A stretch of DNA of 43,407 bases from assembly GCA_944393475.1 (NCBI GenBank), contig CALYAI010000001.1:1-43407 (forward strand), read 5' to 3'. Under the pieces are notes generated by a model. It did no database searches and was not told the origin of the DNA. It worked only from the letters and a program-made list of their open reading frames with translations. A program made the position numbers and the translations under genes. The DNA comes from an uncultured Clostridia bacterium. Lineage in GTDB: Bacteria; Bacillota; Clostridia; TANB77; CAG-508. Positions 1-41,655 of the stretch are shown piece after piece (position 1 is the stretch's first letter; every line of letters starts with the position of its first letter).

Positions 1-77
<77 letters not shown>

Positions 78-28703: not shown

Positions 28704-29324
28704 ATGGCACAATACATTACAATTAATTTAAAAAAAGACTTAATAGTAATGAAGATAAGTGAAAAAGCAACACAGGAAGATACTATAAAAAGTTTAAAGA
28801 AAAAATTACCAGAATTAAAAAAGTTATATCAGCAAGAGAAAACGCCAATATTTGTAACAGGTAGAATTTTAAAAAACAAAGAATTAAAAGAAATAGAAGA
28901 ATTAATAACTAAAAGCATAAATGTAGATGTTGAATTCGATACACCTAAAGCTTTAGGATTAAATGAAATTAGAAGAACATATAATAAAGATGTTGCAATT
29001 TCAGAAGCTAAAATACATAGGGGCTCATTAAGATCTGGCCAAAGAATAGAATATGAGGGAACGATTGTAATTTTAGGTGATGTAAATGATGGTGCAGAAG
29101 TAATAGCAGGTGATAATGTTATAATCGTTGGAAAATTAAGAGGATTAGCACATGCTGGAGCAAAAGGAAACAAGCAAGCCATCATAGCAGCATATAGAAT
29201 AGATACACATCAATTAAGAATTGCAAATATAATAAAAGAATTAGAAAAAGATGAAGAAGCATATAATGTAGCATATACATATGCATATGTTGATGAAAAT
29301 GGAAAAGAAATAATCATAGAATAA
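28704..29324 (+). CDS. minC: Septum site-determining protein MinC
   Basis: C-terminal beta-helix region reads IHRGSLRSGQRIEYEGTIVILGDVNDGAEVIAGDNVIIVGKLRGLAHAG. Confidence 0.8.
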   Translation: MAQYITINLKKDLIVMKISEKATQEDTIKSLKKKLPELKKLYQQEKTPIFVTGRILKNKELKEIEELITKSINVDVEFDTPKALGLNEIRRTYNKDVAISEAKIHRGSLRSGQRIEYEGTIVILGDVNDGAEVIAGDNVIIVGKLRGLAHAGAKGNKQAIIAAYRIDTHQLRIANIIKELEKDEEAYNVAYTYAYVDENGKEIIIE

Positions 29325-29332
29325 ATTATAAA

Positions 29333-29376
29333 AAAGAATGTACTAAAAGCTATAAACGGACAAGTACATTCTTTTT
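29333..29376. terminator. Hairpin between convergent minC and the small-ORF operon
   Basis: AAAGAATGTAC / GTACATTCTTT 11-bp stem with an unusually large 20-nt loop, then T-run. Confidence 0.5.
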
Positions 29377-29389
29377 ATATACATAAAAT

Positions 29390-29560
29390 TTAGCTAAATA
29401 ATAGTAAAAATAAACAAATTAATAATTCTTTATCCATATTATTTTCATTATATAAAATAAACATTATAAAAAGAATTATTAAATCATCTAAATACAATTC
29501 TAATCCCAATATGTGTATTATGGGAATTTCTCCATCATGGAAAACTATTAGATCATTCAT
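29390..29560 (-). CDS. Possible small hydrophobic protein (about 56 aa), translationally coupled to the upstream ORF
   Basis: The ATG at 29560 overlaps the last codons and TGA of the 120-aa ORF. Hydrophobic stretches LIILFIMFILY and LLICLFLLLFS. No recognisable family, and it could be spurious. Confidence 0.3.
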   Translation of the reverse strand: MNDLIVFHDGEIPIIHILGLELYLDDLIILFIMFILYNENNMDKELLICLFLLLFS

Positions 29561-29915
29561 TTTTATCACCATCGTTAAAATTATTAAACATTTCTAATAG
29601 AGGAGCCATGTTCATTAATTTTATGTACTGACCTAATTTTTCTTGTCTACTTTTTCTTAAAAAAGGTTTTAAAGCTAAAAGAAGATTTGTTTTGTTATCA
29701 TTTTTTGAAGAATTTATTTTACACATTATTTCTTTAATCTTTAAAACTGTATTAATATCAATGCTTTCATCGATATTATTGCAAGAATTTGTATTGTTTG
29801 TATTTTGGGAAGACTTGTCAGTATTGTTTAAATTATTTATTAAATCTTTAAATTTATCCATATCTATATTACTATTCGAGAAATTTTTTATTAAATCTGA
29901 CAAATCATCATTCAT
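29553..29915 (-). CDS. Hypothetical 120-aa protein (Asn/Asp-rich N-terminal half, conserved-looking basic C-terminal helix LLLALKPFLRKSRQEKLGQYIKLMNMAPLL)
   Basis: Longest ORF in this interval, on the strand opposite to the surrounding operons. It is followed by the shared hairpin. Confidence 0.55.
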   Translation of the reverse strand: MNDDLSDLIKNFSNSNIDMDKFKDLINNLNNTDKSSQNTNNTNSCNNIDESIDINTVLKIKEIMCKINSSKNDNKTNLLLALKPFLRKSRQEKLGQYIKLMNMAPLLEMFNNFNDGDKNE

Positions 29916-29937
29916 AAAAATACATACCTTTCTTAAA

Positions 29938-30087
29938 TTATTCTAGATTTTTCTTTAATTTGTTTATAATTTCTTCCCTATTATCTGATTTCATAATTTT
30001 ATCTGCAATTTCCATACTTTTTTGTAAATTTTCTTTATCCACAGTGGACAACAAATTCATTAATTTTTTCATATCTAAATTATCCAT
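29938..30087 (-). CDS. Hypothetical 49-aa protein (not in the supplied ORF track)
   Basis: Read by hand: MDNLDMKKLMNLLSTVDKENLQKSMEIADKIMKSDNREEIINKLKKNLE. SD GGGGTG lies 6 nt upstream of the ATG at 30087. It shares an N-[LI]-D-M-x-K motif with the next ORF. Confidence 0.45.
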   Translation of the reverse strand: MDNLDMKKLMNLLSTVDKENLQKSMEIADKIMKSDNREEIINKLKKNLE

Positions 30088-30129
30088 AAAATCACCCCTA
30101 TTAATTTATATGAACTTTGTTACAATATT

Positions 30130-30158
30130 ATATTAGCAATGTTAATAAAATGTTACAA
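30130..30158 (-). promoter_or_regulatory. Putative promoter of the small-ORF operon
   Basis: Minus strand reads TTGTAA (30158-30153), 17-nt spacer, TAATAT (30135-30130). Confidence 0.4.
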
Positions 30159-30227
30159 AAAAAACAGATAAAATAATATTACATATTTATTAAATTTACA
30201 TAAAATTCAATAAAAATTGGAAAATTG

Positions 30228-30256
30228 TTGAAAAATAGCTAGAAAGAGTGTATAAT
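30228..30256 (+). promoter_or_regulatory. Sigma-A promoter of the giant surface-protein operon
   Basis: TTGAAA (30228-30233), exactly 17 nt, TATAAT (30251-30256). The implied TSS near 30263 makes the ORF-track start at 30266 unlikely. Confidence 0.65.
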
Positions 30257-30295
30257 ATATGATATATGGGATTATTATTTTTTAAGGAGGAAAAT

Positions 30296-33200
30296 ATGAA
30301 AAAGGATGTTGTAAATAAATTCATAGCAGCACTTTTAACAGTTTGTTTACTTATGACATATGTGTCAACTTTAACAAACTCTGTTTATGCTGCATATGAA
30401 GAATTAGAAAAACAAGGAATTGTATCAAACAACAAAAATGTCGAGTTCGATGCATATTTCAAAGAAGAAGGAAATAATAAACATAGTATCGAGGCAGAGA
30501 CATCTGCTGAACAAAAATTATATGTAAAAGTAAAGGTTAAAGACATGGGGTATCTAGAAAATGCAACAATTTCAATAGATAATCCAAACTTTACAATTTC
30601 AAGAAGCTTTTCATCAGATAGCATAAAAACAATTGATTATGATAATAATCAATTCACTCTAAACCAAATAGAGAGTGGAAAAGAAGTTGAAATAGAAATT
30701 CCTGTAAACTTTGCAAGAAATGATAATATGGATTTAACATATTTTTCAAGAGAAACAAGCTTAAATTTAACAGGAAAATATTATGATGAAAATGAGAGAG
30801 AAAGAAATATTAAATCTGATATAAAAGTTAGATTAAATTGGACAGCTACACCAAAAGCAGTATTAAGCGAAGATGTAGTTAAATATGGTACATATGAAGA
30901 TAAAGTATATATGCAAACAATATTAACTAGCAATCTAGAAGGAAACTCTCTTCCAGTAGAATTTACAAAATTAAATGTTAGCGCACCTAAGATAGGAGAT
31001 AAAACACCGGAAGAAGTAAGAATTTTTGCAGATACAACAGCAACAAATGGTGGAAGCATTACAAAGGATATGTGGTCATATAATAAAGGAACAGGTATCT
31101 TAGAAATAAATGTAGAGAATAAAGAAAATAATAATCAAGTAAATTGGAGAACGGGAGCAGATAAATTCTACATTACATATATTTATGAGAAAACAGAGCT
31201 AGCACCTATAACAGTTAATTTAAATTCTACTTCAACATTAAATACATATGTTACAAATCAAGAAGTAACAGCAAGTGTTAAAAAAGATGTAAATCTTGAA
31301 GGAGAATTAAGTAATGTTGTAAGTACAGAAGTTACAGCAACACCGGAATTATATAAAGGATATATGTATGCAAATAATAAATACGAAACAGAATATTCAT
31401 CTACAATATCAGCAAATATTGCATATACAGATGCTATAGACAAAGTATCTATAGAAGAAAATAATGCAAAATTTGTATTAACAGATGGTAGTGAGATTTC
31501 AGCAGGAAGTAATATTTATTATAAAGCTATATCTCTTAGTGGTGCAAAATTTAATGAGATTTTAGGAAACGATGGTAATATTCAAATTTATGACCAAAAC
31601 GGAAATAGAATTGCTGGTATAGATAAAAATACAGCAATGGACCAAAATGGTAATATGGTAATTACAATAGATAATCAAAATGTTTCATCAATAAAAATAG
31701 AAACATCAAAACCAGTTACAGAAGGAATATTAACAATTAATTTAAATAAAGCAATCAAAGCTACAACATCTTTAAATAGAACTACAATATCAAGTATTCA
31801 AAGAATGACTACAGAAGTTTCTGGAGATATTTCATTTAAAGAAATTAAGACAGAAACTACAGAAATGAAAGAGACATCTACAAAGGCAGAATTATATATA
31901 AGCAATACAAATTTAACAACAACTGCTAAAAATGAAAATGTAGAGATAAAAGCAATATTAAAATCAAATGATTATACATGTGATTTATATAGTAATCCAA
32001 CAGTAGAAATTACATTACCTAGCGAGATAGAAACTTTAGATTTAAAATCTGTAAACCTATTATACAATGGAAATATTACAATTGAGAACTATAATGTAAC
32101 AACAGATGCTAATGGTAACAAAGTAATTAGAATTACAATGAAAGGTGAACAAACAGAATTTGTTACAGATATTAGTAAAGGTATAAATATAGTAATAAAT
32201 ACAGATATAACATTAAGTAAAACAGCAGCAAGTAGTGATAAAACAGCAACATTAAAAGTTACAAATCAAAAAGCAATGCAATATGAAAATGACGGATTTG
32301 TAACAGTTCCAATGAGTATTTATGCACCACAAGGTGTAGTACTACTAAGTAGTGTATCAAATTTTGATAGTACAAATTCAGAAGTAGTTTCTATGACAAA
32401 TAAAGAACAAGCTGGAAAAATAGAAATAAATGGAACTGCAAAAAATATTACAATGAAAGCAACAGTTGTAAATAACTATGGTAAAGATATAAAAGAGCCA
32501 AAAGTTCTAGGTAGAATTCCATTCCAAGGAAACAAGAAAACTGATGGAGAAGAATTAGGATCAACAGTGGATACAATTTTAACATCAGGAATTACTCTTT
32601 CTGGAATAGATAGTAATTTAGCTACAATCTACTATAGTGAAAATGCAGAAGCAACAGCAGACATAAATAATCCGGACAATGCTTGGACAACATCAATAAA
32701 TGATGCTACAAAGATTAGATCATATTTAGTTGTATTTACAAATTATGTAATGCCTCAAGCAACATCTTTCGATATGTCATACAATGTACAAGTACCAGAG
32801 AATTTACCACATAATGAAAATGCATTTGGTACATATACTGTATACTATAATGAAGAAGAAAATAACGAAACAATAGCAAGAGAGAGTATAGCTCCAACAG
32901 TTGGTGTATCTACAGGTAAAGGACCAGAATTATCTGCAAATATTTCTTCTAATGTTAGTACAGAAGTTTCAACAGTGGATATTATGGAATATAAAGTTAC
33001 AATAAAAAATGATGGTGAAGTAGAAGCACAAAATGCAAAAGTAACAGTTAATTTACCAGATATAGTTGACTATGCAGAACGTATAGAAGAACCAATGGGA
33101 GAAAGTTATCAGCCAAGACCTGAGCAAAGAACAATAGAACTTTCTGTTGGAAATTTAGCACCAGGCGAGAGTAAAGAAACATCTTTCACATTAAAGGCAA

Positions 33201-35089
33201 ATAAAGAGGGAACATTTAAATTAGATTTTGTTCTTTCTGCAGACAACCTAGAAAAAACAGCACAAGTATCATCACAAGAAATAAAAGTTACATTAGCAAG
33301 TTTTTATATAGAATTTACTACACCAACACAAACAAATGTAGGTGTAAATAGTGAGATAGATTACTACATAAACATTTCTAATGCAACTGATAAGAAAATA
33401 AACAATGTAAAAGCAACAATAACTTTACCAGATACAGTTGAATATGTACAAGCAACAAGAGGTGAATATGTAGGAGAAAATCCAACAGAAGAAGATGTAA
33501 GTTATGACGAAAAAGATAGAGTTGTAACATTTGATGTTGGTGATATCGAAGCAAATTCAGCTGCAGAATACACATTTGGATTAAAAGTTAAAGTTGTAAA
33601 AGATGAAGATATTAATATGCAAGTTGTAGTTACTGGTAAAGATGCAAATACACAAAAAAGTTCAGTAATTTTACATACAACAAGCGAAAACAAATTAGAT
33701 GTAACAACAGAGACAGATATTACAGAAGATTATTTACAAATAGGTGATGTTGTAACATATACAATTAAAGCTAAAAACATAAGTTCAGGACTTATTAAAA
33801 ATGTAAAAGTATCTGCAACAATACCAGAAAACTTAAAATATTTAAATACAACATATTATCTAGATGATACAGAAATATTTAATGGATATTTATTAGAAGA
33901 TAGAGTTTCTTCAGCTACTATGGACCTAGATGCAGGACAAACATTAACATTTGTAGTAAAAGCAGCAGTAAATAAATTGACTGATCCATCAAAAGAGCAA
34001 GAAGATGCAAATGTAAAAGTAGAAGTAAGTGGCGATGGAACAGAAGATTATAAAACAGATTTTAAAAACACAATAGAAAATGACAACCCAACAAATCCAG
34101 ATGGATCTAATACATATAGAATCTCAGGTACAGTATGGTATGACGAAAACAGAAATGGTACAAGGGATTCTAACGAAGAATTACTTTCTGGAATACCAGT
34201 TTCTATTGTGGATGCAGAAACAGGAAAAGCTGTTAAGAATTCAAATGGTGATGAAATTACAGCAACAACAGATGAAAAAGGCGAATATATTTTAAGTGAT
34301 TTATTGCAAGGTAAATATATAGTTAAATTTGCATATGACAATTCAAAATATGCAATAACAGAATATAGAGCACAGGGAGCTGATGAAACAGTAAACTCTG
34401 ACGCAATTAACACAACAGAAAATAATGGAACAGCAATAACTGACAACTTAGATATAACAGATTCTAGTATGAATAATATAGACTTAGGTTTAATAACAAA
34501 AGGAAACTTCGATTTATCACTTAATAAAACATTAACACAAATTCAAATGGCAGATGGAAAGACAACAAAATCAGTATCATTTGACCATGAAAAATTAGGT
34601 AAAATAGAAGTAGATGGAAAACGTATAAATAGTACAAACTTAGTAATTGAATATACAATGACAATAACAAACAATGGTAATGTAGCAGGATATGCTAAGA
34701 AGATAGTTGATTATGTTCCAGATTCATTATCATTTAGTTCAAGCTTAAATAATAACTGGTATGCTTCTGGAAATACAGTAGTATGTACAAGCTTAGAGAA
34801 TGAATTAATTAATCCAGGAGAAAGTAAAGAAGTTAAATTACTATTAACTAAGAAGATGGACGAAAATGGAACAGGAACAGTTACAAATAAAGCAGAAATA
34901 ACAGAAACATATAATGACCAAGGACTACTAGATGCAACATCAGAAAATGATGATACAAATTCTTCAGCAAATGTTATTATTGGTATAAAAACTGGTGGAC
35001 CAGTTACATATATATTATTAACTGTATCAATATTAGCAATTGTAGGATGTGGAGCATACATAATTAATAAGAAAGTATTAAAGGTTTAG
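30296..35089 (+). CDS. Giant surface protein A (1597 aa): signal peptide, long beta-rich N-terminal region, three DUF11/CARDB-like repeats, one SdrD-B/Cna-B-like module, one further DUF11-like module, C-terminal TM anchor
   Basis: ATG at 30296, 6 nt after AAGGAGG. Signal peptide ends in NSVYA/AYE. DUF11-like segments include YKVTIKNDGEVEAQNAKVTVNLPD...GNLAPGESKETSF. SdrD-B-like segment reads YRISGTVWYDENRNGTRD...DEKGEYILSDLLQGKYIVKF. Tail is IKTGGPVTYILLTVSILAIVGCGAYIINKKVLKV. Confidence 0.8.
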   Translation: MKKDVVNKFIAALLTVCLLMTYVSTLTNSVYAAYEELEKQGIVSNNKNVEFDAYFKEEGNNKHSIEAETSAEQKLYVKVKVKDMGYLENATISIDNPNFTISRSFSSDSIKTIDYDNNQFTLNQIESGKEVEIEIPVNFARNDNMDLTYFSRETSLNLTGKYYDENERERNIKSDIKVRLNWTATPKAVLSEDVVKYGTYEDKVYMQTILTSNLEGNSLPVEFTKLNVSAPKIGDKTPEEVRIFADTTATNGGSITKDMWSYNKGTGILEINVENKENNNQVNWRTGADKFYITYIYEKTELAPITVNLNSTSTLNTYVTNQEVTASVKKDVNLEGELSNVVSTEVTATPELYKGYMYANNKYETEYSSTISANIAYTDAIDKVSIEENNAKFVLTDGSEISAGSNIYYKAISLSGAKFNEILGNDGNIQIYDQNGNRIAGIDKNTAMDQNGNMVITIDNQNVSSIKIETSKPVTEGILTINLNKAIKATTSLNRTTISSIQRMTTEVSGDISFKEIKTETTEMKETSTKAELYISNTNLTTTAKNENVEIKAILKSNDYTCDLYSNPTVEITLPSEIETLDLKSVNLLYNGNITIENYNVTTDANGNKVIRITMKGEQTEFVTDISKGINIVINTDITLSKTAASSDKTATLKVTNQKAMQYENDGFVTVPMSIYAPQGVVLLSSVSNFDSTNSEVVSMTNKEQAGKIEINGTAKNITMKATVVNNYGKDIKEPKVLGRIPFQGNKKTDGEELGSTVDTILTSGITLSGIDSNLATIYYSENAEATADINNPDNAWTTSINDATKIRSYLVVFTNYVMPQATSFDMSYNVQVPENLPHNENAFGTYTVYYNEEENNETIARESIAPTVGVSTGKGPELSANISSNVSTEVSTVDIMEYKVTIKNDGEVEAQNAKVTVNLPDIVDYAERIEEPMGESYQPRPEQRTIELSVGNLAPGESKETSFTLKANKEGTFKLDFVLSADNLEKTAQVSSQEIKVTLASFYIEFTTPTQTNVGVNSEIDYYINISNATDKKINNVKATITLPDTVEYVQATRGEYVGENPTEEDVSYDEKDRVVTFDVGDIEANSAAEYTFGLKVKVVKDEDINMQVVVTGKDANTQKSSVILHTTSENKLDVTTETDITEDYLQIGDVVTYTIKAKNISSGLIKNVKVSATIPENLKYLNTTYYLDDTEIFNGYLLEDRVSSATMDLDAGQTLTFVVKAAVNKLTDPSKEQEDANVKVEVSGDGTEDYKTDFKNTIENDNPTNPDGSNTYRISGTVWYDENRNGTRDSNEELLSGIPVSIVDAETGKAVKNSNGDEITATTDEKGEYILSDLLQGKYIVKFAYDNSKYAITEYRAQGADETVNSDAINTTENNGTAITDNLDITDSSMNNIDLGLITKGNFDLSLNKTLTQIQMADGKTTKSVSFDHEKLGKIEVDGKRINSTNLVIEYTMTITNNGNVAGYAKKIVDYVPDSLSFSSSLNNNWYASGNTVVCTSLENELINPGESKEVKLLLTKKMDENGTGTVTNKAEITETYNDQGLLDATSENDDTNSSANVIIGIKTGGPVTYILLTVSILAIVGCGAYIINKKVLKV

Positions 35090-35106
35090 AAAGGGGGATG
35101 GAAGAT

Positions 35107-38100
35107 ATGAAGAAATACAAAGTATTAAGTATAATAATAATAGCAATACTTTTACCAATGATAGCAATTTTAGCATATTTTGCACCAATATCAGAAGCTA
35201 GTTCATTTTCATATTCATATTCATCACTTGGTTCACCTCCTTTTGTAACCAACATAGATGGTAAACCAACTGAAGTATATTGTTCTAATGCAGGTGGTGC
35301 CCTATGGTCTAGCTTTGGTACATTTACATTCTATAGCCAAGAGACACATACAATGGAACCAGGTTTAGCATATGCTTTAAGACAATGTTGTAGTATATAC
35401 TCTAGACAGAACTTAATTTGGATGTCAAATATATCTAATAATACGATATATCCTGTATGGAAAACAGATTATGAAGATGCTAGAGCACAATATAATAAAA
35501 TAGCCGGATTTAACAAGTATTATGAAGGTTTACAACAACATGGAACAGAAATAAAATTCCAAGATTCAGAAGCTCAATTACAAAGCTCAGAAAATGGTGT
35601 ATTTAAATTAGGACCATTCAAATTAGACTTCTATAAGAGTAGCTATTCTGGATTATCTAAAATGTATTTACAAACAGATGATAATAGACAAATAGAAGTA
35701 ACACAAGTTAATTTTGGTGGATATACAGGAAATGTATCAGATATAGAGCCAGGAGAAGAATTCTATGTATTATTATCTGAAGAAGATGCAGGACAAGCTT
35801 CTAAAGTTAAATTAGTAGCAGAATTCCAATATGTAGAAGCAAGTGGATCTTATACATACTATAAACCAAATAAATCACAACAAACAATTCAAGGTAAAAC
35901 TGTTCAACGTTTAGTAACAATAAATTATACAGGTGGAAATAAAACAGATGACGCTGAAGGACCAGAAATTGAATTAACAATAGATTTAGCAGGTAAAGTA
36001 TTTAAAGATAATCTAGCAAATAAAGACGGAACAGAAGATGGTATCTTAAGTACTGGTGATGAAATGTTAGAAGGAATAGAAGTAACATTATTCGATAATA
36101 CAGGAGCAGAAGTAGCAAAAACAACAACAGACGAAAATGGTTACTACGAATTCTTAGACCAACCAGCATCTAAAGATTACTATGTAAGATTTAAATATAA
36201 TGGACAATTATATGAGCCAACAACTTACCAAAGAGTAAGCAAGATAATAGATTCAGCAGGAACGTTAGGACCAACAACAATAGCTGAAAGATCTTATGCT
36301 ACAGACGGTAAGAAAAACAGACAAGACTTTAATAATAAATTCACACCAGTGGATGGATCACATGTAGTTCCAGATAGAAATGATACTACAAATTCAGCAT
36401 TTGATATTTATTCATATACAGGACCAAATGGTATGGAAGAATTAAAATACTATGGAGTATCAAACTCTAAGGAAGAATTACAAAATATCAACTTTGGTAT
36501 TAAAGATAGAGAGCAATTTGATATGAACTTAAGAAAAGATTTAGTAAAGGTTGATGTAAATATTAATGGTAAATCACATTCATATGCATATCCAGGAGGA
36601 GACCAAGATCTAGAAGTTAATATAAGGGGTACAGACATACCGGATTATGAAAGAGCTATTAGATCTTCAGATTTACAATTTAAAGCAGATCAAAATTACA
36701 CAGAAGGAAATGAAGATAAATTACAAGTAATTGTAACCTATAAAATTCAATTAAGGAATCAATCAGTTGGTAAAATAACAGGATATGTAACAGATTTAGC
36801 TGATTACTATGATACATCATATGAATTTATAAGATCATATGATGAAAACGAAACAGAGATCGCTTGGGAACAATCAAGTGATGTTTCTGGAAATGATACA
36901 ACATATCATTCAATGCATACAACTGCATTATCAGAGCAAGGAATTACAGATAAAAAATGGATATTTGTAGAGTATAGAGTTACAGCAGATGCTTTAAGAT
37001 CATTATTACAAGAAGGACAATCTACTAAGGAAAATTTAGCAGAAATAGCTGGATACAGAAATACTTATACAGAAGAAAGAAAAGACCTAAATGGACAAGT
37101 AATTACTAATGCAGGAGAAAATGCAGGATTAATAGATATAGACTCAACACCAGCAAACTTAGATCCAACAAGCTCAGAAGTACAAAACTTTATAGCAGAA
37201 TCTAAGACAGATGAATATCAAAACTTAGATGGCGAAACAAAAACAAAACGTAGTATGGAAGTATTTGAAGATGATGCAGACTCTGCACCAGGATTAAAAT
37301 TAATTGTAGATGATACAAATAAGAGAAGATTAACAGGTACAGTATTTGAGGATGCAGCACTTACAGAAAAACTAGAGCAAGATAACGAAAGACTTGGTAA
37401 TGGTCTATATGAAGATGGCGAAAACTTAGTAAACCAAGTAAAAGTACAATTAATTTGTACAAATCCTAATGTAGCAGTAAAAGAAATAAGAACAAATGAA
37501 GATGGTTCTTATGAATTTACAGATTATATTCCAGGTGATTACACAGTTAAATTTATATATGGAGACTATGAATCATTAGTTGCAAAACAACCAAATGATG
37601 AAATGTATACAGGTCAAGATTATAAATCTACTATATACACAGAAGGAAATTATTCTGATTCACACTGGTATAATAACAATGCAGATACAAGAAATAATGA
37701 TGCTAAAGATGACCAAACAAGAAGAGCAGAAGTTAATAGCTATAGTGAAGACTTAAAAAATACAAATGCAACTGTATTAAATTCTACAGCTACAACTGAT
37801 GAAGCAACATTAAGAACTTTAGCGGATAAAACAAATATGAATGCAAATACAGCTCAAATGAGTATGGAAGTAGAATATGTTGGACAAGAAAATACAGAAT
37901 ATTTAGCAAAGAATATTGACCTTGGTATTATAGAAAGACCTCGTTCAGATGTATTTGTAGAGAAGAAAGTAACAAGCTTTAAGTTAAAATCTGCAGGTGA
38001 TGGACAGACAATATTTGATGCAACACAATCAGTACCAAACTTAACTTGGAAGGAAAACACAAGAAATAATAGAGGACTTGTTCAAGCAACAGTGGATAAT

Positions 38101-38799
38101 AACTTATTACATGGTGCAACAATGGAAGTAACATTCTCTATAAAAGTTATAAATACAGGTGAGACAGACTATAATGACGAAACATATTACAACACAGGTG
38201 TTATAACAGATGCAAGCAAAATAGTTACATATAAACCAGCAGTTGTAGCAGACTATATTTCTAATAATTTAGTATTTGATATTAATTCAAATACTGGATG
38301 GCAAGAAATAACAGATAAAACACAATTAACTTCTGGAAATGATCCATACATTAAAGCAATTGACGAAAATGCATTTAATGGATTACAAAAAGTTGTAGTA
38401 TCTACAGCTGATAACCCAATAATTCAATCTGATCCAATCGTTCCAGAAAAGGCAAAAGATAAAGCTGGTAAATCATCAGAGACACAAGCAGCTACAGTAT
38501 ATGTAACAAAAGTACTTGCTTCTGATGAAAACACAACAGAAGATTCACAATACGAAAATGCAGCAGAAGTTATAGAATCTATTACTACAAATGGTAGAAG
38601 AACATATAACGCACAAATAGTTTCTATCCCTGGTAACTATAATCCAGATGAACCAGACTTAGGATTATCTGAACATATCACAGTAGTACCTCCATTTGGT
38701 GCAGCTGATGTAATTAAATATGTAGTTATAGGAATAGTAGCAATTGCAGTATTAGGATTGGGAATTTTAGTAATAAAAAGAAAAGTCTTAAGAAAATAA
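35107..38799 (+). CDS. Giant surface protein B (1230 aa): signal/anchor, Cys-containing N-terminal head (candidate thioester/TQXA-like domain), two [SdrD-B-like + DUF11-like] modules, C-terminal TM anchor
   Basis: ATG at 35107, 9 nt after GGGGG. Head motifs EVYCSNAGG and SRQNLIW. SdrD-B-like segments are LAGKVFKDN...DENGYYEFLDQPASKDYYVRF and LTGTVFEDA...NEDGSYEFTDYIPGDYTVKF. IDIDSTPAN patch. Tail is VPPFGAADVIKYVVIGIVAIAVLGLGILVIKRKVLRK. Confidence 0.8.
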   Translation: MKKYKVLSIIIIAILLPMIAILAYFAPISEASSFSYSYSSLGSPPFVTNIDGKPTEVYCSNAGGALWSSFGTFTFYSQETHTMEPGLAYALRQCCSIYSRQNLIWMSNISNNTIYPVWKTDYEDARAQYNKIAGFNKYYEGLQQHGTEIKFQDSEAQLQSSENGVFKLGPFKLDFYKSSYSGLSKMYLQTDDNRQIEVTQVNFGGYTGNVSDIEPGEEFYVLLSEEDAGQASKVKLVAEFQYVEASGSYTYYKPNKSQQTIQGKTVQRLVTINYTGGNKTDDAEGPEIELTIDLAGKVFKDNLANKDGTEDGILSTGDEMLEGIEVTLFDNTGAEVAKTTTDENGYYEFLDQPASKDYYVRFKYNGQLYEPTTYQRVSKIIDSAGTLGPTTIAERSYATDGKKNRQDFNNKFTPVDGSHVVPDRNDTTNSAFDIYSYTGPNGMEELKYYGVSNSKEELQNINFGIKDREQFDMNLRKDLVKVDVNINGKSHSYAYPGGDQDLEVNIRGTDIPDYERAIRSSDLQFKADQNYTEGNEDKLQVIVTYKIQLRNQSVGKITGYVTDLADYYDTSYEFIRSYDENETEIAWEQSSDVSGNDTTYHSMHTTALSEQGITDKKWIFVEYRVTADALRSLLQEGQSTKENLAEIAGYRNTYTEERKDLNGQVITNAGENAGLIDIDSTPANLDPTSSEVQNFIAESKTDEYQNLDGETKTKRSMEVFEDDADSAPGLKLIVDDTNKRRLTGTVFEDAALTEKLEQDNERLGNGLYEDGENLVNQVKVQLICTNPNVAVKEIRTNEDGSYEFTDYIPGDYTVKFIYGDYESLVAKQPNDEMYTGQDYKSTIYTEGNYSDSHWYNNNADTRNNDAKDDQTRRAEVNSYSEDLKNTNATVLNSTATTDEATLRTLADKTNMNANTAQMSMEVEYVGQENTEYLAKNIDLGIIERPRSDVFVEKKVTSFKLKSAGDGQTIFDATQSVPNLTWKENTRNNRGLVQATVDNNLLHGATMEVTFSIKVINTGETDYNDETYYNTGVITDASKIVTYKPAVVADYISNNLVFDINSNTGWQEITDKTQLTSGNDPYIKAIDENAFNGLQKVVVSTADNPIIQSDPIVPEKAKDKAGKSSETQAATVYVTKVLASDENTTEDSQYENAAEVIESITTNGRRTYNAQIVSIPGNYNPDEPDLGLSEHITVVPPFGAADVIKYVVIGIVAIAVLGLGILVIKRKVLRK

Positions 38800-38816
38800 T
38801 AAAACTTAATAAGAAG

Positions 38817-38850
38817 AAAGGCAGATAAAAATCTGCTTTTCTTTTTTTGA
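38817..38850 (+). terminator. Rho-independent terminator ending the giant-gene operon
   Basis: GCAGAT / ATCTGC core stem extended by A-T and G-T pairs, AAAA loop, then a long T-run. Confidence 0.7.
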
Positions 38851-38936
38851 ATATTGCGAAAAAAGTCGATCGGAATATTTGGACATTTATAATATTTAAT
38901 GATAGAATATAGAAAAAAAGAAAGGGAGTAGATAAA

Positions 38937-40334
38937 ATGACATATGGAGAAGAATTAAAAGATAAGCTATTTAAGAAAAAAGTAAATGGTTGGTTTAAAA
39001 TTTCTGACGAATTAAGACAAGAGATAATGAATTATAGTCAAAGATATATGGAATTTTTAAACAATTCAAAAACTGAAAGAGAAATTGTTAAAAGCTCTGT
39101 AAAAATAGCTCAAGAACATGGTTTTAGGGATATAAACGAAGTAGAATACTTAAACCCAGGAGATAGAGTATACTATGTAAATAAAGAAAAAAGTATGTAC
39201 TTAGCAGTAATAGGAGAAAATAGATTAGAAGATGGATTAAATATTATAGGTTCACATGCAGATTCACCAAGATTGGACTTAAAACCAAATCCATTATACG
39301 AGGACCAAGAATTAGCATATTTTAAAACTCATTACTATGGAGGAATAAAGAAATACCAATGGACAACCATTCCTTTAAGTATTCATGGAGTTATTATAAA
39401 AGCAGACGGAGAAAAATTAGAAGTTAGAATTGGTGAAGATGATAATGATCCAATATTTACAGTAACAGATTTATTGCCACATCTTGCTAAAGAACAAGAA
39501 AATGCAAAATTAAGAGATGCAATAAAAGGTGAAGATCTAAACCTTTTAATAGGAAGTGAGCCTTTTGGAGAAGAAATTCCAGAAAGAGTAAAATTAAATA
39601 TCTTAAATATTTTAAATAAAAAATATGGAATTGTAGAAGATGATTTATCAAGTGCAGAATTAGAATTAGTTCCAGCATTTAAAGCTAGAACACAAGGATT
39701 TGACGAGAGCATGGTTGCAGGTTATGGACAGGATGATAAAGTATGTGTATATACATCATTAACTGCAATGATGGAATTAGGAAACATAAGTAGAACAGCA
39801 GTATGCATTATAGCTGATAAAGAAGAAATAGGTAGTATGGGAAATACAGGAATGGAATCACATGCATTTGATACATTTGTAACATATCTATTAAATAAAA
39901 GAGGAGAGAATAGGGTAAATCTATTAGAAAAAGTATTTTGTAATTCAAAGATGTTATCTGCAGATGTTGATGCATGTTTAGATCCAATATATGCAAATGT
40001 TTCTGACAAATTAAATGCAGGATTTATGGGATATGGTGTAGCATTAAATAAATATACAGGTTCTGGTGGAAAGTATTCTGCATCTGATGCAAACGCAGAA
40101 TATTTAGCAGAAGTAAAGAGAATATTTGATAGCAACAATGTTAAATATCAAATATCAGAGCTAGGGAAAGTAGATGTTGGAGGTGGAGGAACTATAGCAT
40201 ATATTCTAGCTAATAAAGGAATAGATGTTATAGACTGTGGTGTACCAATATTATGCATGCATTCACCTTATGAAGTTGCAAGTAAATACGATATTTATTC
40301 TGCATACCAAGCATATAAAGCATTCTGGAAATAA
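38937..40334 (+). CDS. M18-family aminopeptidase (aminopeptidase 1/ApeA-like)
   Basis: Motifs GSHADSPRLDLKPNP, FKTHYYGGIKKYQW, GYGQDDKVCVY, IADKEEIGS and CMHSPYE. 465 aa. Confidence 0.8.
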   Translation: MTYGEELKDKLFKKKVNGWFKISDELRQEIMNYSQRYMEFLNNSKTEREIVKSSVKIAQEHGFRDINEVEYLNPGDRVYYVNKEKSMYLAVIGENRLEDGLNIIGSHADSPRLDLKPNPLYEDQELAYFKTHYYGGIKKYQWTTIPLSIHGVIIKADGEKLEVRIGEDDNDPIFTVTDLLPHLAKEQENAKLRDAIKGEDLNLLIGSEPFGEEIPERVKLNILNILNKKYGIVEDDLSSAELELVPAFKARTQGFDESMVAGYGQDDKVCVYTSLTAMMELGNISRTAVCIIADKEEIGSMGNTGMESHAFDTFVTYLLNKRGENRVNLLEKVFCNSKMLSADVDACLDPIYANVSDKLNAGFMGYGVALNKYTGSGGKYSASDANAEYLAEVKRIFDSNNVKYQISELGKVDVGGGGTIAYILANKGIDVIDCGVPILCMHSPYEVASKYDIYSAYQAYKAFWK

Positions 40335-40740: not shown

Positions 40741-41655
40741 ATGAATAAAGAAAAAACAAGAGAGCTCACAGAAGATTACATATTTAAAAGAGTATTTGGG
40801 AAAAAAGGAAATGAAGACTTATTAAAAGATTTATTAGAGAGTATATTGGAAATAAAAATACAGAAAATAGAAGTAATAGTTGGACCAGAAGTAGAAAAGA
40901 TAAAACCAGAAGATAAATTAGGAGTGATAGACTTAAAAGCAACAATAAATGAAAATACCACGATAGATATAGAAATTCAAGTAAAAGATAATCATAATAT
41001 GGTAGAAAGAAGTACATTTTATATAGCGGGTCTATACCATACCGGACTAAAATCAGGAGAAGTATATGAAGAAAATAATAAAGTAATAGGAATAAATATA
41101 TTAATGTTTAATATATTTGAGTGGGAAAAGTTTCATTCAAAAGGAATATTAAAAGAAGATGAGCTTAATAAAATAATGACGGATAAAATTGAATTACACT
41201 TTTTGGAATTACCTAAAATAATAAATAATAAAAAAGAAGGAAGTAAAAGATTAAGACAATGGTTAGAATTTATTTATAATAAAAGAAAGGAGGAAATTGC
41301 ATTGGCAGTAAAAGAAAATGCTAAAATAGCAAAAGCAAAAGAAGAGTACGAATGTTTAACGGGAGACGAAACAGTTCAAAGATTGGCATTCTTGAGAGAA
41401 AAATGGGAAAGAGACCATAAGTCAGAGTTATTGTGGGAAAAAAGAGAAGCACAAAAGGAAGGCAGGGAAATAGGAGAAAAGATAGGAAAGAAGATAGGGG
41501 AGAAGATCGGGAAGAAGATAGGAAAAGAATTAGAAAGAAAAAATATAATTAAAGAAATGATAAAAAAACAAATTACAGATGAATTAATTATAGGGATAAC
41601 AAAAATTACAGAAGAGGAATTGGCGAAAATAAAAGAAGAGATGAAAGAAGAATAA
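40741..41655 (+). CDS. Rpn-family recombination-promoting nuclease / PD-(D/E)XK putative transposase
   Basis: N-terminal YIFKRVFGKKGNEDLLKDLLESIL. Nuclease core reads GVIDLKATINENTTIDIEIQV...ERSTFYIAGLY. C-terminal helical tail ITDELIIGITKITEEELAKI. Standalone gene with its own SD and hairpin. Confidence 0.75.
   Translation: MNKEKTRELTEDYIFKRVFGKKGNEDLLKDLLESILEIKIQKIEVIVGPEVEKIKPEDKLGVIDLKATINENTTIDIEIQVKDNHNMVERSTFYIAGLYHTGLKSGEVYEENNKVIGINILMFNIFEWEKFHSKGILKEDELNKIMTDKIELHFLELPKIINNKKEGSKRLRQWLEFIYNKRKEEIALAVKENAKIAKAKEEYECLTGDETVQRLAFLREKWERDHKSELLWEKREAQKEGREIGEKIGKKIGEKIGKKIGKELERKNIIKEMIKKQITDELIIGITKITEEELAKIKEEMKEE
41470..41529 (+). repeat. Five tandem 12-nt units encoding (I-G-E/K-K)5 inside the Rpn gene
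   Basis: Units are ATAGGAGAAAAG, ATAGGAAAGAAG, ATAGGGGAGAAG, ATCGGGAAGAAG and ATAGGAAAAGAA, all in frame, giving IGEKIGKKIGEKIGKKIGKE. Confidence 0.85.

What the first reader, a model, noticed from the sequence alone, without database searches (positions are those of the whole stretch)
30228..38850. Self-contained two-gene operon encoding giant modular surface proteins, with no sortase, pilin or secretion partner nearby
A consensus promoter (TTGAAA-17-TATAAT) is followed by ORFs of 1597 and 1230 aa, separated by 17 nt, and then a hairpin with a T-run. Together they make about 20% of the window. Housekeeping genes flank them (minC side upstream, aminopeptidase downstream).

The two proteins share a repeated module order that is visible by eye:
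- an SdrD-B/Cna-B-like unit (A: YRISGTVWYDENRNG...GEYILSDLLQGKYIVKF; B: LAGKVFKDN...GYYEFLDQPASKDYYVRF and LTGTVFEDA...GSYEFTDYIPGDYTVKF)
- a linker (NIDLGLI / NINFGIK / NIDLGII)
- a DUF11-like sandwich
- an acidic patch (SENDDTNSS in A, IDIDSTPAN...EDDADS in B)

Protein A has a long unique N-terminal region and three extra DUF11-like repeats. Protein B has a Cys-bearing head. This pairing suggests a two-component surface fibre or adhesin, with a stalk or partner plus a reactive tip, rather than two independent adhesins. I could not match the pairing to a named system.
Basis: partly seen in the sequence, partly recalled or inferred. Interest (0 to 1): 0.7.

Follow-up and report, generated by a model that had tools for sequence, protein, structure and literature searches.

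The report
Paired giant surface adhesin genes
Two adjacent genes in an uncultured gut Clostridium encode a long stalk protein and a partner with a probable covalent-binding thioester head; the pair is inherited as one unit across dozens of related species, but it is built from known adhesin parts.

Summary
In detail: promoter, two ORFs of 1597 and 1230 aa, a 17-nt gap, a terminal hairpin, and shared SdrD-B plus DUF11-like modules.

Protein B's Cys-bearing head is a Class II-like thioester domain (TED). This rests on an AlphaFold model (pLDDT 86.8), four top Foldseek hits to EfmTIE86 and BaTIE TEDs, and all three TED motifs in place (C59, RQNLIW, VQRLV/Q267). Protein A is an all-beta rod: an Ig-like array, then CLIPPER/DUF11, SdrD-B and a DUF11-like sandwich.

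The pairing is conserved. In 76 loci from gut Clostridia MAGs I found 79 A-then-B pairs, 74 with gaps of 24 nt or less. Some form A-B-A-B arrays, usually at the same mreBCD-pbp2-minC locus. A and B co-diverge.

Each family has its own sorting-signal-like C-terminus. A has x[IV]xTG and B has xPP[F/T]G, each followed by a TM helix and a KKKVL tail. A class B sortase sits beside the pair in three relatives, but not in this window.

Best reading: a co-transcribed, two-component fibrillar adhesin made of a thioester-tipped TIE protein and a stalk partner. This is a new variant of a known kind. Physical association and anchoring chemistry are inferred, not shown.

The parts
30228..30256 (+). Sigma-70-type promoter-like site, TTGAAA-17-TATAAT
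   Evidence: It scores 11/12, the best site in 29300-39300. This is a consensus match only.
30296..35089 (+). Gene A, 1597 aa. Order of parts: signal peptide, Ig-like array, CLIPPER/DUF11 repeats, SdrD_B, DUF11-like sandwich, sorting-like C-terminus.
   Evidence: An AAGGAGG ribosome-binding site lies 5 nt upstream.
30296..30391 (+). A signal peptide (aa 1-32; likely cleavage VYA|A)
   Evidence: Hydrophobic N-terminus and sequence. The cleavage site is inferred.
30398..32935 (+). A N-terminal conserved region (aa 35-880): an array of Ig-like beta-sandwich domains with no Pfam family
   Evidence: AF2 model m139608e80c10 has pLDDT 89.5 and is all beta. The top Foldseek hits are PrgB Ig-like domains (2e-20), integrin alpha chains and alpha2-macroglobulin-family proteins. 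No Pfam match. The region is conserved at 23-40% identity in partners of all B-family genes.
31355..31357 (+). A Lys354 (LYKGYMYAN), the only invariant lysine of the A N-terminal region
   Evidence: Invariant in alignments A3 (51 sequences) and A4 (33 sequences). It sits between a strand and a short helix in the model. Its role is unknown.
32936..34081 (+). A CLIPPER/DUF11 repeat region (aa about 881-1262)
   Evidence: Pfam PF01345 at 58.7 bits in 4 stretches, the best at aa 888-982. TIGR01451 at 49.2 bits.
34121..34435 (+). A SdrD B-like domain (aa 1276-1380)
   Evidence: Pfam PF17210 at 54.9 bits. PDB SdrD 10ps_A at E = 2e-6.
34475..34966 (+). A membrane-proximal DUF11-like sandwich. It carries a K/D/N signature (FDLSLNK, IVDYVPD, TNKAEI) and an acidic end.
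   Evidence: It aligns to both B sandwiches. Positions. The isopeptide bond is inferred, not tested.
34976..35086 (+). A C-terminal sorting-signal-like segment: GIKTGG, TM helix, INKKVLKV
   Evidence: T and G are invariant in 73 of 73 distinct A-family tails. The consensus is [SGT][IV][KRS]TG, mostly 1-8 aa before the predicted TM helix (two tails overlap its predicted start). No NCBIfam hit for the window tail.
35090..35106 (+). 17-nt intergenic spacer holding B's ribosome-binding site (AAAGGGGGA)
   Evidence: In 74 of 79 related pairs the spacing is 24 nt or less, measured between ORFs.
35107..38799 (+). Gene B, 1230 aa. Order of parts: signal peptide, thioester-domain head, two copies of SdrD_B plus sandwich, sorting-like C-terminus.
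35200..35985 (+). B thioester-domain (Class II-like TED) head, aa about 32-293. Key residues: Cys59 (35281-35283), RQNLIW 100-105 (35404-35421), VQRLV with Gln267 (35902-35916).
   Evidence: AF2 model m1164a88e392a has pLDDT 86.8 and pTM 0.80. The top 4 Foldseek hits are 6fwy and 6fwv TEDs at E = 2e-7 to 3e-6, and the next hit is at E = 0.02. C59, W105 and Q267 are invariant. Motif definitions come from PMC6194298.
36022..36264 (+). B SdrD B-like domain 1 (aa 306-386)
   Evidence: Pfam PF17210 at 58.3 bits in 2 stretches.
36484..37284 (+). B sandwich 1, including IDIDSTPAN...EDDADS
   Evidence: Aligns to A's C-terminal sandwich. K477, D569 and N643 are conserved.
37330..37554 (+). B SdrD B-like domain 2 (aa about 742-816)
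   Evidence: Second Pfam stretch. BLASTP alignment to A's SdrD_B.
37912..38637 (+). B sandwich 2, the membrane-proximal one
   Evidence: N1151 and E1154 are invariant.
38674..38796 (+). B C-terminal sorting-signal-like segment: VPPFGA, TM helix, IKRKVLRK
   Evidence: P1196, F1197 and G1198 are invariant in A1. The family consensus is [VLTI]P[PNSA][F/T/Y]G, with F in 50, T in 18 and Y in 1. TIGR01167 scores 14.8 bits against a cutoff of 15.9.
38821..38848 (+). Terminator-like hairpin GCAGATAAAAATCTGC plus a T-run
29390..30087 (-). Three small divergent ORFs (49, 120 and 60 aa) between minC and A. They are conserved upstream of A-B pairs.
   Evidence: Homologues of the 120-aa and 60-aa ORFs occur in 41 and 34 loci. 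No Pfam or NCBIfam family. Any link to A-B is unproven.

Best explanation
Genes A and B form one operon that encodes a two-component fibrillar surface adhesin of an uncultured, low-GC, spore-forming gut Clostridium.

**Protein B.** B is a TIE-type adhesin. After Sec export, its N-terminal Class II-like thioester domain (Cys59-Gln267) would sit at the far end of a stalk. The stalk is two copies of an SdrD-B domain plus a CLIPPER-like sandwich. The thioester would react covalently with an amine on a target such as a host or microbial surface molecule.

**Protein A.** A is a rod of about 13 beta-sandwich domains: an Ig-like array, CLIPPER/DUF11 repeats, SdrD-B and a sandwich. It has no recognisable binding head and serves as the conserved partner.

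**Shared base.** Both proteins end in homologous membrane-proximal modules, a family-specific short motif (A x[IV]xTG; B xPP[F/T]G), a TM helix and a KKKVL tail. They would therefore be inserted side by side. They are probably processed and wall-anchored by a class B sortase encoded elsewhere in the genome.

**Shown:** gene structure, domain content, the TED fold and motifs, conserved adjacency, co-divergence, and the C-terminal motifs.

**Inferred:** thioester formation, physical A-B association, sortase processing, and adhesion as the role.
For: **Gene structure**
- The calls supporting the promoter, ORFs, spacer and hairpin are 1, 3-7 and 11.

**Domains**

**B head is a thioester domain**
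- The model has pLDDT 86.8.
- The four best Foldseek PDB hits are Class II thioester domains, at E = 2e-7 to 3e-6. The next hit is at E = 0.02.
- Cys59 lies at the end of the third strand, RQNLIW lies on the second helix, and Gln267 precedes the last long hairpin. The Cys-Gln spacing is 208 residues, against 204 in EfmTIE86 and 188 in TIEpLS20.
- C59, W105 and Q267 are invariant in 13 sequences that fall to 19% identity.
- A profile of the head finds TED-like heads in 61 of 74 distinct B-family heads.

**A N-terminal region**
- It is a confident all-beta Ig-like array.

**Pairing**
- There are 79 adjacent A-then-B pairs in 76 loci, and 74 have gaps of 24 nt or less. Tandem A-B-A-B arrays occur. 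Two apparent lone A genes turn out to be pairs cut off by the locus end.
- The pair is syntenic beside mreBCD-PBP2-minC across species whose PBP2 is only about 50% identical.
- A and B co-diverge.

**Anchoring**
- The C-terminal motifs are conserved.
- A class B sortase (TIGR03064, 179.8 bits against a cutoff of 153.75) lies directly downstream of B in L016, L021 and L026.
- Sortase homologues at 73-82% identity are abundant and sit in housekeeping contexts.
- The B motif resembles the VPPTG/VVPTG signal of Cpa, the thioester tip adhesin handled by the class B sortase Spy0129.
- The A motif resembles the NVQTG-type signal of C. difficile SrtB substrates.
Against: - **No sequence-level match to TEDs.** Pfam finds nothing for the head, and a PDB profile search finds no TED. 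The Foldseek TM-scores are low (about 0.26, rmsd 13 A). The Cys-Gln distance in the model could not be measured.
- **No direct evidence of A-B contact.** Adjacency and co-divergence could reflect only co-regulation and duplication as a unit.
- **The sorting motifs are not canonical.** Most B tails carry Phe where a sortase substrate has Thr. TIGR01167 scores stay below its cutoff (13.5-14.8 against 15.9), and the window's A tail scores nothing. The shared GxG...KKKVL tail differs from the tails of the clear TPKTG substrates next to the sortases.
- **No sortase in the window.** Its presence in this genome could not be checked.
- **A core envelope role is possible.** The locus is conserved beside cell-shape genes in every member, which would also fit a structural role rather than adhesion.
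- **Many heads may be inactive.** About half of the TED-like heads in the family lack the aligned Cys and/or Gln.
Confidence: 0.6

Rival explanations
1. A and B are two independent adhesins. They are merely co-transcribed and were duplicated together. Each is anchored on its own and binds its own ligand, and they do not associate physically.
For: - Both proteins have complete export and anchoring signals of their own.
- Surface-protein genes often cluster.
- Co-divergence is expected for any unit that duplicates together.
- About 4 solo B-like genes exist: L043, L064 and L066/L040.
Against: - The order A-then-B and the spacing of 24 nt or less hold in 74 of 79 pairs, across species whose housekeeping proteins are only about 50% identical.
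- A has no recognisable binding head.
- Each family keeps its own distinct C-terminal motif through all duplications.
- Shuffled or single-gene arrangements are rare.
Confidence: 0.2
2. A and B form a covalent mini-pilus assembled by a sortase. The sortase cleaves B's xPP[T/F]G signal and joins B to a lysine of A. A's x[IV]xTG signal is then joined to the cell wall. The result is a non-polymerising fibre of tip plus base. The C. diphtheriae SpaC-SpaB heterodimer, cited from memory, would be a precedent.
For: - The two families keep distinct sorting-like motifs.
- B's motif matches the VPPTG/VVPTG signal of Cpa, a thioester tip adhesin that the class B sortase Spy0129 attaches to the pilus.
- A class B sortase lies next to the pair in three species.
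- A has a single invariant, apparently loop-located lysine, K354.
Against: - 76 of 79 pairs have no sortase gene in the operon.
- Phe replaces the P1 Thr in most B tails.
- The adjacent sortases are accompanied by clear TPKTG substrates, which could explain their presence.
- A, at 1597 aa, is unlike known base or backbone pilins.
- No pilin motif was identified.
Confidence: 0.12
3. The pair is a structural envelope component of this lineage, such as a fibrillar outer layer, an intercellular tether, or a sporulation or cell-shape-associated scaffold. It is not a host or environment adhesin.
For: - The pair lies at one conserved chromosomal site, between mreBCD-PBP2-minC and spoIIE, in many species.
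- Each genome examined has at least one pair, and often two or more.
- Three small divergent genes are conserved alongside.
Against: - Thioester heads are known from adhesins that bind targets covalently.
- A and B evolve faster (64-79% identity) than flanking housekeeping genes (75-93%), and B heads vary. This is the pattern expected of proteins facing the environment.
- Synteny alone does not show a functional link.
Confidence: 0.08

Closest known systems
Class II TIE proteins (BaTIE/BasC of B. anthracis, EfmTIE86, SaTIE, TIEpLS20)
   Same: - An N-terminal signal peptide is followed by a thioester domain at the tip.
- The TED layout is the same: beta-barrel, helical bundle, inserted beta-sandwich and a long hairpin.
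- The [YFL]C, TQXX-phi-W and phi-Q-zeta-phi-phi motifs are present, with Cys-Gln spacing of about 190-210 residues.
- The stalk is made of Ig-like, probably isopeptide-bonded, domains.
- The C-terminus has a hydrophobic segment and a basic tail.
   Different: - Sequence methods do not detect the TED.
- The stalk is SdrD-B plus CLIPPER-like modules rather than CnaB domains.
- The C-terminal motif is VPPFG, not LPXTG.
- B is always encoded immediately after a conserved 1600-aa partner gene. The papers I read do not describe such a partner.
S. pyogenes FCT pilus (Cpa tip adhesin, Spy0128 backbone, class B sortase Spy0129)
   Same: - A thioester-bearing tip protein has a (V)(P/V)PTG-type signal that a class B sortase recognises.
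- It is encoded together with a second structural protein that carries a different signal.
   Different: - In almost all loci there is no sortase, no SipA-like chaperone and no small polymerising backbone pilin in the operon.
- The partner is a 1597-aa rod.
- Phe replaces Thr in most B motifs.
- Polymerisation is not indicated.
Fibrillar adhesins with CLIPPER (DUF11) stalks, such as Acinetobacter B9T28_05395 (PDB 9IFR)
   Same: - A has Pfam PF01345 repeats in the middle of a long secreted protein with a sorting-type C-terminus.
- The K/D/N pattern typical of the isopeptide triad is present in the membrane-proximal sandwiches.
   Different: - A's three tandem CLIPPER repeats appear to lack the Lys/Asn pair. 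This comes from reading the sequence only.
- A has no recognised adhesive head.
- A works as one half of a gene pair.
C. difficile SrtB substrates ((S/P)PXTG, NVQTG)
   Same: - They come from the same class of organism and use class B sortases.
- A's [SGT][IV][KRQ]TG resembles NVQTG, and the minority B motif TPPTG/IPSTG fits (S/P)PXTG.
- Clear TPKTG substrates lie next to the related sortases.
   Different: - Most B tails have Phe at P1.
- A and B share a conserved GxG...KKKVL tail that the TPKTG proteins lack.
- Cleavage has not been tested.
SdrD / Sdr-family B repeats of staphylococci
   Same: SdrD_B domains serve as stalk spacers (Pfam PF17210; PDB 10ps_A at E = 2e-6).
   Different: There is no A-region ligand-binding domain, no SD repeat and no LPXTG. 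The B domains alternate with DUF11-like sandwiches.

Membership tests
Thioester domain (TED), Class II, of TIE proteins | Bond-forming Cys in a [YFL]C-phi-zeta motif, contributed by beta-strand C | tested here: met
   VYCSN is present. C59 is invariant in 13 sequences that fall to 19% identity. It lies at the end of the third strand of the model. The phi position is Ser in the window, which is a small deviation. Motif definition from PMC6194298.
Thioester domain (TED), Class II, of TIE proteins | [quoted passage not shown] | tested here: met
   VQRLV is present and Q267 is invariant. The spacing is 208 residues, against 204 in EfmTIE86 and 188 in TIEpLS20. Q267 sits at the start of the last 21-residue strand, after a seven-strand beta region.
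Thioester domain (TED), Class II, of TIE proteins | TQXX-phi-W motif on helix alpha2 | tested here: met
   RQNLIW is present, with T replaced by R. W105 is invariant, and Q101 is present in 9 of 11 sequences of alignment A1. The motif lies in the second helix of the model.
Thioester domain (TED), Class II, of TIE proteins | Overall fold matches solved Class II TEDs | tested here: met
   The four top Foldseek PDB hits are 6fwy and 6fwv, at E = 2e-7 to 3e-6 with probability 1.00. The next hit is at E = 0.02. Caveat: TM-scores are about 0.26 and rmsd is 13 A, so the rigid-body superposition is poor.
Thioester domain (TED), Class II, of TIE proteins | Recognised by sequence models of the family | tested here: not met
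   No Pfam hit for the head at E up to 1. No TED among the PDB hits by phmmer or by profile search.
Thioester domain (TED), Class II, of TIE proteins | An actual Cys-Gln thioester bond (17 Da mass loss, continuous density) | not testable with these tools
   This needs expressed protein.
CLIPPER / DUF11 (PF01345) | Pfam model above its gathering score | tested here: met
   A scores 58.7 bits against a cutoff of 24.6, in 4 stretches. TIGR01451 scores 49.2 against 24. B's sandwiches are not detected by Pfam and are related only through alignment to A.
CLIPPER / DUF11 (PF01345) | Lys-Asp-Asn intramolecular isopeptide triad | tested here: inconclusive
   Conserved K/D/N residues occur in the expected order in the membrane-proximal sandwiches: A K1411/D1472/N1531, B K477/D569/N643 and B K953/D1049/N1151. 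The geometry was not checked. A's three tandem repeats seem to lack the Lys/Asn pair.
SdrD B-like domain (PF17210) | Pfam model above its gathering score | tested here: met
   A scores 54.9 bits and B scores 58.3 bits in two stretches, against a cutoff of 29.7.
Sortase substrates (cell-wall sorting signal) | Tripartite C-terminus: pentapeptide motif, hydrophobic segment, basic tail | tested here: inconclusive
   The layout is present in both families, with invariant TG in A and invariant G in B. However, the motifs are non-canonical, with Phe at P1 in 50 of 69 B tails. TIGR01167 scores 13.5-14.8 bits, below its 15.9 cutoff, and nothing for the window's A tail.
Sortase substrates (cell-wall sorting signal) | A cognate sortase encoded in the genome | not testable with these tools
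   The 43-kb window has none. A class B sortase is adjacent to the pair in L016, L021 and L026. Homologues at 73-82% identity are common in similar samples. The rest of this genome could not be read.
Sortase-assembled pili | A dedicated pilus sortase in the same gene cluster | tested here: not met
   The window has none, and so do 76 of 79 pairs.
Sortase-assembled pili | A backbone pilin with a pilin-motif lysine that polymerises | not tested
   A has one invariant lysine, K354, but no YPKN-type motif was sought systematically. A is far larger than known pilins.

The most novel reading that the evidence does not exclude
The A-B cassette may be a previously undescribed class of two-protein covalent surface fibre.

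- B's conserved xPP[F/T]G signal would be resolved onto a lysine of its dedicated partner A. The acceptor might be the single invariant, loop-located Lys354.
- The enzyme could be a class B sortase that tolerates Phe at P1, or an unrecognised transpeptidase.
- A's x[IV]xTG signal would then fix the heterodimer to the wall.
- The result would be a non-polymerising mini-pilus of about 20 domains, carrying a thioester warhead.
- The cassette has multiplied into several copies per genome, which could diversify targets.
Probability: 0.12. Interest if true: 0.75.

Novelty: new variant of a known kind. Interest (0 to 1): 0.5.

Why it matters
- **Whole lineages of covalent adhesins may be hidden.** Thioester (TIE) adhesins bind targets covalently and have been studied almost only in pathogens, as single genes or as pilus tips. 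Here a thioester domain that sequence models miss sits in abundant, uncultured human and animal gut Clostridia.

- **The conserved partner suggests a two-component architecture.** The TED-bearing gene is always coupled to a conserved 1600-aa partner gene. I did not find this pairing described in the adhesin papers I read.

- **The motifs give testable handles on surface sorting.** The family-specific C-terminal motifs, and especially PPFG where PPTG is expected, allow direct tests of how these organisms sort surface proteins and of the limits of class B sortase specificity.

- **Practical use for annotation.** The A N-terminal region and the B head could be turned into new profile models to annotate hundreds of 'hypothetical' giant proteins in gut metagenomes.

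Tried and rejected
- **Sequence searches of A and B against PDB chains.** These found only SdrD and chance hits. A profile of the B family against the PDB again found only SdrD and NOMO.

- **tblastn of A and B against plasmids.** No match. A link to a conjugative element of the TIEpLS20 type is therefore not supported.

- **Pfam and NCBIfam on the B head, the A N-terminal halves and the three small divergent ORFs.** Nothing significant.

- **My first guess for the bond-forming Gln.** I first took Cys59 to pair with the Gln of RQNLIW, 42 residues away. I rejected this after reading the TED motif definitions. That Gln belongs to the non-bonding TQXX-phi-W motif, and the bonding partner is Q267.

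- **Structure prediction using homologues taken from loci.** I rebuilt the alignment from protein-search hits instead.

- **A recurrent accessory gene next to the pairs.** I looked for a sortase, exosortase, glycosyltransferase or chaperone. Clustering the flanking ORFs gave only syntenic housekeeping genes. Sortases turned up in just 5 loci.

- **Proving that the window's genome has a sortase.** I could only show that related class B sortases are common and sit in housekeeping contexts.

- **The first homologue search.** It was saturated by one sister species at about 79% identity. Diversity came from the representatives search and the genome scan.

- **Rfam and tRNA scans.** These found only a tRNA-Arg at the start of the window.

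Full report
**1.

The window has about 27% GC. It carries spoIIE, mreBCD, a PBP2 and minC, so it comes from a spore-forming Clostridium-like organism.

- **Promoter.** TTGAAA-17-TATAAT lies at 30228-30256. It is the best-scoring promoter-like site in 29.3-39.3 kb. Such sites are not enriched overall in this AT-rich DNA.
- **Gene A.** It most likely starts at the ATG at 30296, after AAGGAGG, and encodes 1597 aa.
- **Gene B.** It most likely starts at the ATG at 35107, after AAAGGGGGA, and encodes 1230 aa. The gap from A's stop to B's ATG is 17 nt.
- **Terminator.** A hairpin at 38821-38836 is followed by a T-run.
- **Domains.** Pfam finds DUF11 in four stretches plus SdrD_B in A, and two SdrD_B domains in B.
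- **Shared module.** A's C-terminal module (SdrD_B plus sandwich) aligns with each of B's two modules at 21-22% identity, with E = 3e-6 and 3e-5.
- **Anchors.** Each protein has only an N-terminal signal sequence and one C-terminal hydrophobic helix. Neither has LPXTG.
- **Neighbours.** The 43-kb window holds no sortase, pilin or secretion gene.

**2. Protein B has a thioester-domain head**

A search of 1.84 billion representative proteins showed how the family is built. About 3000 representatives share B's stalk (523 at E ≤ 1e-30). Only about nine share its first 250 residues.

Aligning those nine showed invariant C59, W105 and Q267 in the head.

An AlphaFold model of residues 29-302 was confident, with pLDDT 86.8 and pTM 0.80. 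Its four best Foldseek matches in the PDB are the Class II thioester domains of E. faecium TIE86 and B. anthracis BaTIE, at E = 2e-7 to 3e-6. The next hit is at E = 0.02.

The published definition of TEDs names three motifs (PMC6194298). All three are present, on the expected structural elements:

| TED motif | In protein B | Position in the model |
|---|---|---|
| [YFL]C-phi-zeta | VYCSN (C59) | third strand |
| TQXX-phi-W | RQNLIW (W105) | second helix |
| phi-Q-zeta-phi-phi | VQRLV (Q267) | just before the final long hairpin, after an inserted beta-sandwich |

The Cys-Gln spacing is 208 residues. It is 204 in EfmTIE86 and 188 in TIEpLS20.

There are caveats. Sequence methods do not see this domain. 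The TM-scores are low. I could not measure the Cys-Gln distance in the model.

A profile built from this head finds TED-like heads in 61 of 74 distinct B-family heads. The aligned Cys is present in 40 of them, the Gln in 35, and both in 29.

The two stalk sandwiches of B and the last sandwich of A carry conserved Lys, Asp and Asn residues in the order expected for a CLIPPER-type isopeptide triad. That bond is an inference.

**3. Protein A is a rod with no recognisable head**

Residues 35-880 have no Pfam family. A model built with 33 homologues is confident (pLDDT 89.5) and entirely beta.

Its Foldseek hits are generic strings of Ig-like domains: PrgB Ig-like domains, integrin alpha chains and alpha2-macroglobulin-family proteins.

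After this array come the CLIPPER/DUF11 repeats, one SdrD_B domain and one sandwich. Only one lysine is invariant in the N-terminal region. It is K354, in a loop.

**4. The pairing is conserved, which is the main result**

A sister species has the same mreC-mreD-PBP2-minC / A / B / M18-aminopeptidase arrangement, with B 79% identical.

A scan of one genome per species returned 386 relatives. I kept 73 loci, all from uncultured gut Clostridia MAGs such as CAG:354, CAG:567, CAG:245 and Ca. Merdicola.

I classified every long ORF in these loci by BLASTP against segments of A and B:

- There are 79 cases where an A-family gene immediately precedes a B-family gene on the same strand.
- In 74 of these the gap is 24 nt or less.
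- Most lone B genes are cut off by a contig end. About four solo B-like genes remain (L043, L064, L066/L040).
- Two apparent lone A genes are followed, after a short gap (18 nt in L050), by a long ORF that runs off the locus.
- Pairs also occur as tandem A-B-A-B arrays (L027, L032, L038, L045, L047, L059).
- Genomes of the window's genus carry a second pair elsewhere, for example L004 and L018 in UMGS1570.

The pairs usually lie between minC and spoIIE, with three small divergent ORFs next to minC. This holds even in species whose PBP2 is only about 50% identical to the window's.

A and B co-diverge. Spearman correlation is 0.41, no permutation out of 200 reached it, and nearest-neighbour concordance is 35 of 70. 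Both evolve faster (64-79% identity) than the flanking housekeeping genes (75-93%).

**5. The C-termini and how the proteins may be anchored**

Each family keeps its own short motif just before the TM helix:

- **A family:** [SGT][IV][KRS]TG, with T and G invariant in 73 of 73 distinct tails.
- **B family:** [VLTI]P[PNSA][F/T/Y]G, with Phe in 50, Thr in 18 and Tyr in 1.
- **Both families:** the tail ends in GxG...(I/F)IKKKVL.

The minority B motifs (TPPTG, IPSTG, VPNTG) fit the class B sortase signals of C. difficile, (S/P)PXTG. A's motif resembles NVQTG, the alternative C. difficile signal. VPPFG and VVPFG differ by one residue from the VPPTG and VVPTG signals of Cpa. Cpa is the thioester tip adhesin that the class B sortase Spy0129 handles.

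In three related species (L016, L021, L026) a class B sortase lies directly after B. It scores 179.8 bits on TIGR03064, above the 153.75 cutoff. It is followed by an LRR protein ending in TPKTG.

Close homologues of that sortase are abundant. They sit in housekeeping contexts next to another TPKTG protein.

Several points weigh against simple sortase anchoring:

- Phe at P1 in most B tails.
- LPXTG-anchor model scores just below the cutoff, at 13.5-14.8 against 15.9 bits.
- A conserved KKKVL tail that the clear TPKTG substrates lack.

Whether this genome has a sortase could not be checked.

**6. Interpretation**

The best-supported reading is a co-transcribed two-component fibrillar adhesin. 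B carries a thioester warhead. A is a conserved stalk partner. Their homologous membrane-proximal modules and anchors would place them side by side.

The rivals are:

- independent adhesins that are only co-regulated;
- a sortase-linked covalent heterodimer (mini-pilus);
- a structural envelope component.

None of these is excluded. All are separable by the experiments listed under next steps.

**7. Comparison with what is known, and novelty**

Every domain belongs to a known kind: TIE and thioester adhesins, CLIPPER/DUF11 and SdrD_B stalks, and sortase-type sorting signals.

Three things are not described in the papers I could search and read:

- the obligate, conserved A-then-B cassette;
- its multiplication within genomes;
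- the PPFG variant of the signal.

I therefore rate it a new variant of a known kind, of moderate interest.

Noticed in passing
window 28704-30087: minC is not followed by minD or minE. Instead, three small minus-strand ORFs (60, 120 and 49 aa; the 60-aa one is hydrophobic) lie between minC and gene A. Homologues of the 120-aa and 60-aa ORFs occur in 41 and 34 related loci. None matches a Pfam or NCBIfam family.
   Followed up: partly
L016:15062-17126 (also L021, L026): In three species whose A-B pair is 64-68% identical to the window's, a class B sortase follows B directly. After it comes a 376-aa leucine-rich-repeat protein ending in TPKTG plus an LPXTG-type anchor. These lie between B and the M18 aminopeptidase. 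The window and its 79% sister lack both genes at this site.
   Followed up: yes
window 40741-41655: A PD-(D/E)XK family transposase gene (PF12784) sits between the M18 aminopeptidase and prfA. The sister species has prfA directly after the aminopeptidase (L001), so this looks like a recent insertion.
   Followed up: partly
L001:19928-22069: The sister species has a further 713-aa surface protein with SpaA and CLIPPER domains about 6 kb downstream of the pair. Its C-terminal part resembles A's (34% identity). The equivalent region lies beyond the end of the window.
   Followed up: no
L052:21441-23166 (also L051:20861-21253): About 8 kb downstream of an A-B pair lies a short class C/D-like sortase ORF (in both L051 and L052). 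In L052 a pilin-like protein follows it, with a weak TQXA-domain hit and a SpaH/EbpB-type major pilin hit. This would be a conventional sortase pilus locus in the same genome.
   Followed up: partly
window 1295-3142: A 615-aa AAA_23/SMC-like ATPase gene follows a calcineurin-like phosphoesterase gene, an SbcCD-like arrangement. It lies in a stretch of only 14-18% GC, far below the window mean of 27%.
   Followed up: no
L018, L019, L020, L022-L025, L027, L028, L030, L037: Genomes of the window's genus carry a second, paralogous A-B pair at another locus. B is 1300-2090 aa there, and its stalk is about 50% identical to the window's. Its heads either match only the beta-sandwich part of the TED profile or do not match at all.
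   Followed up: partly
window 1-77: A tRNA-Arg (ACG) gene lies at the very start of the window. It is the only Rfam or ARAGORN hit in the 43 kb.
   Followed up: yes
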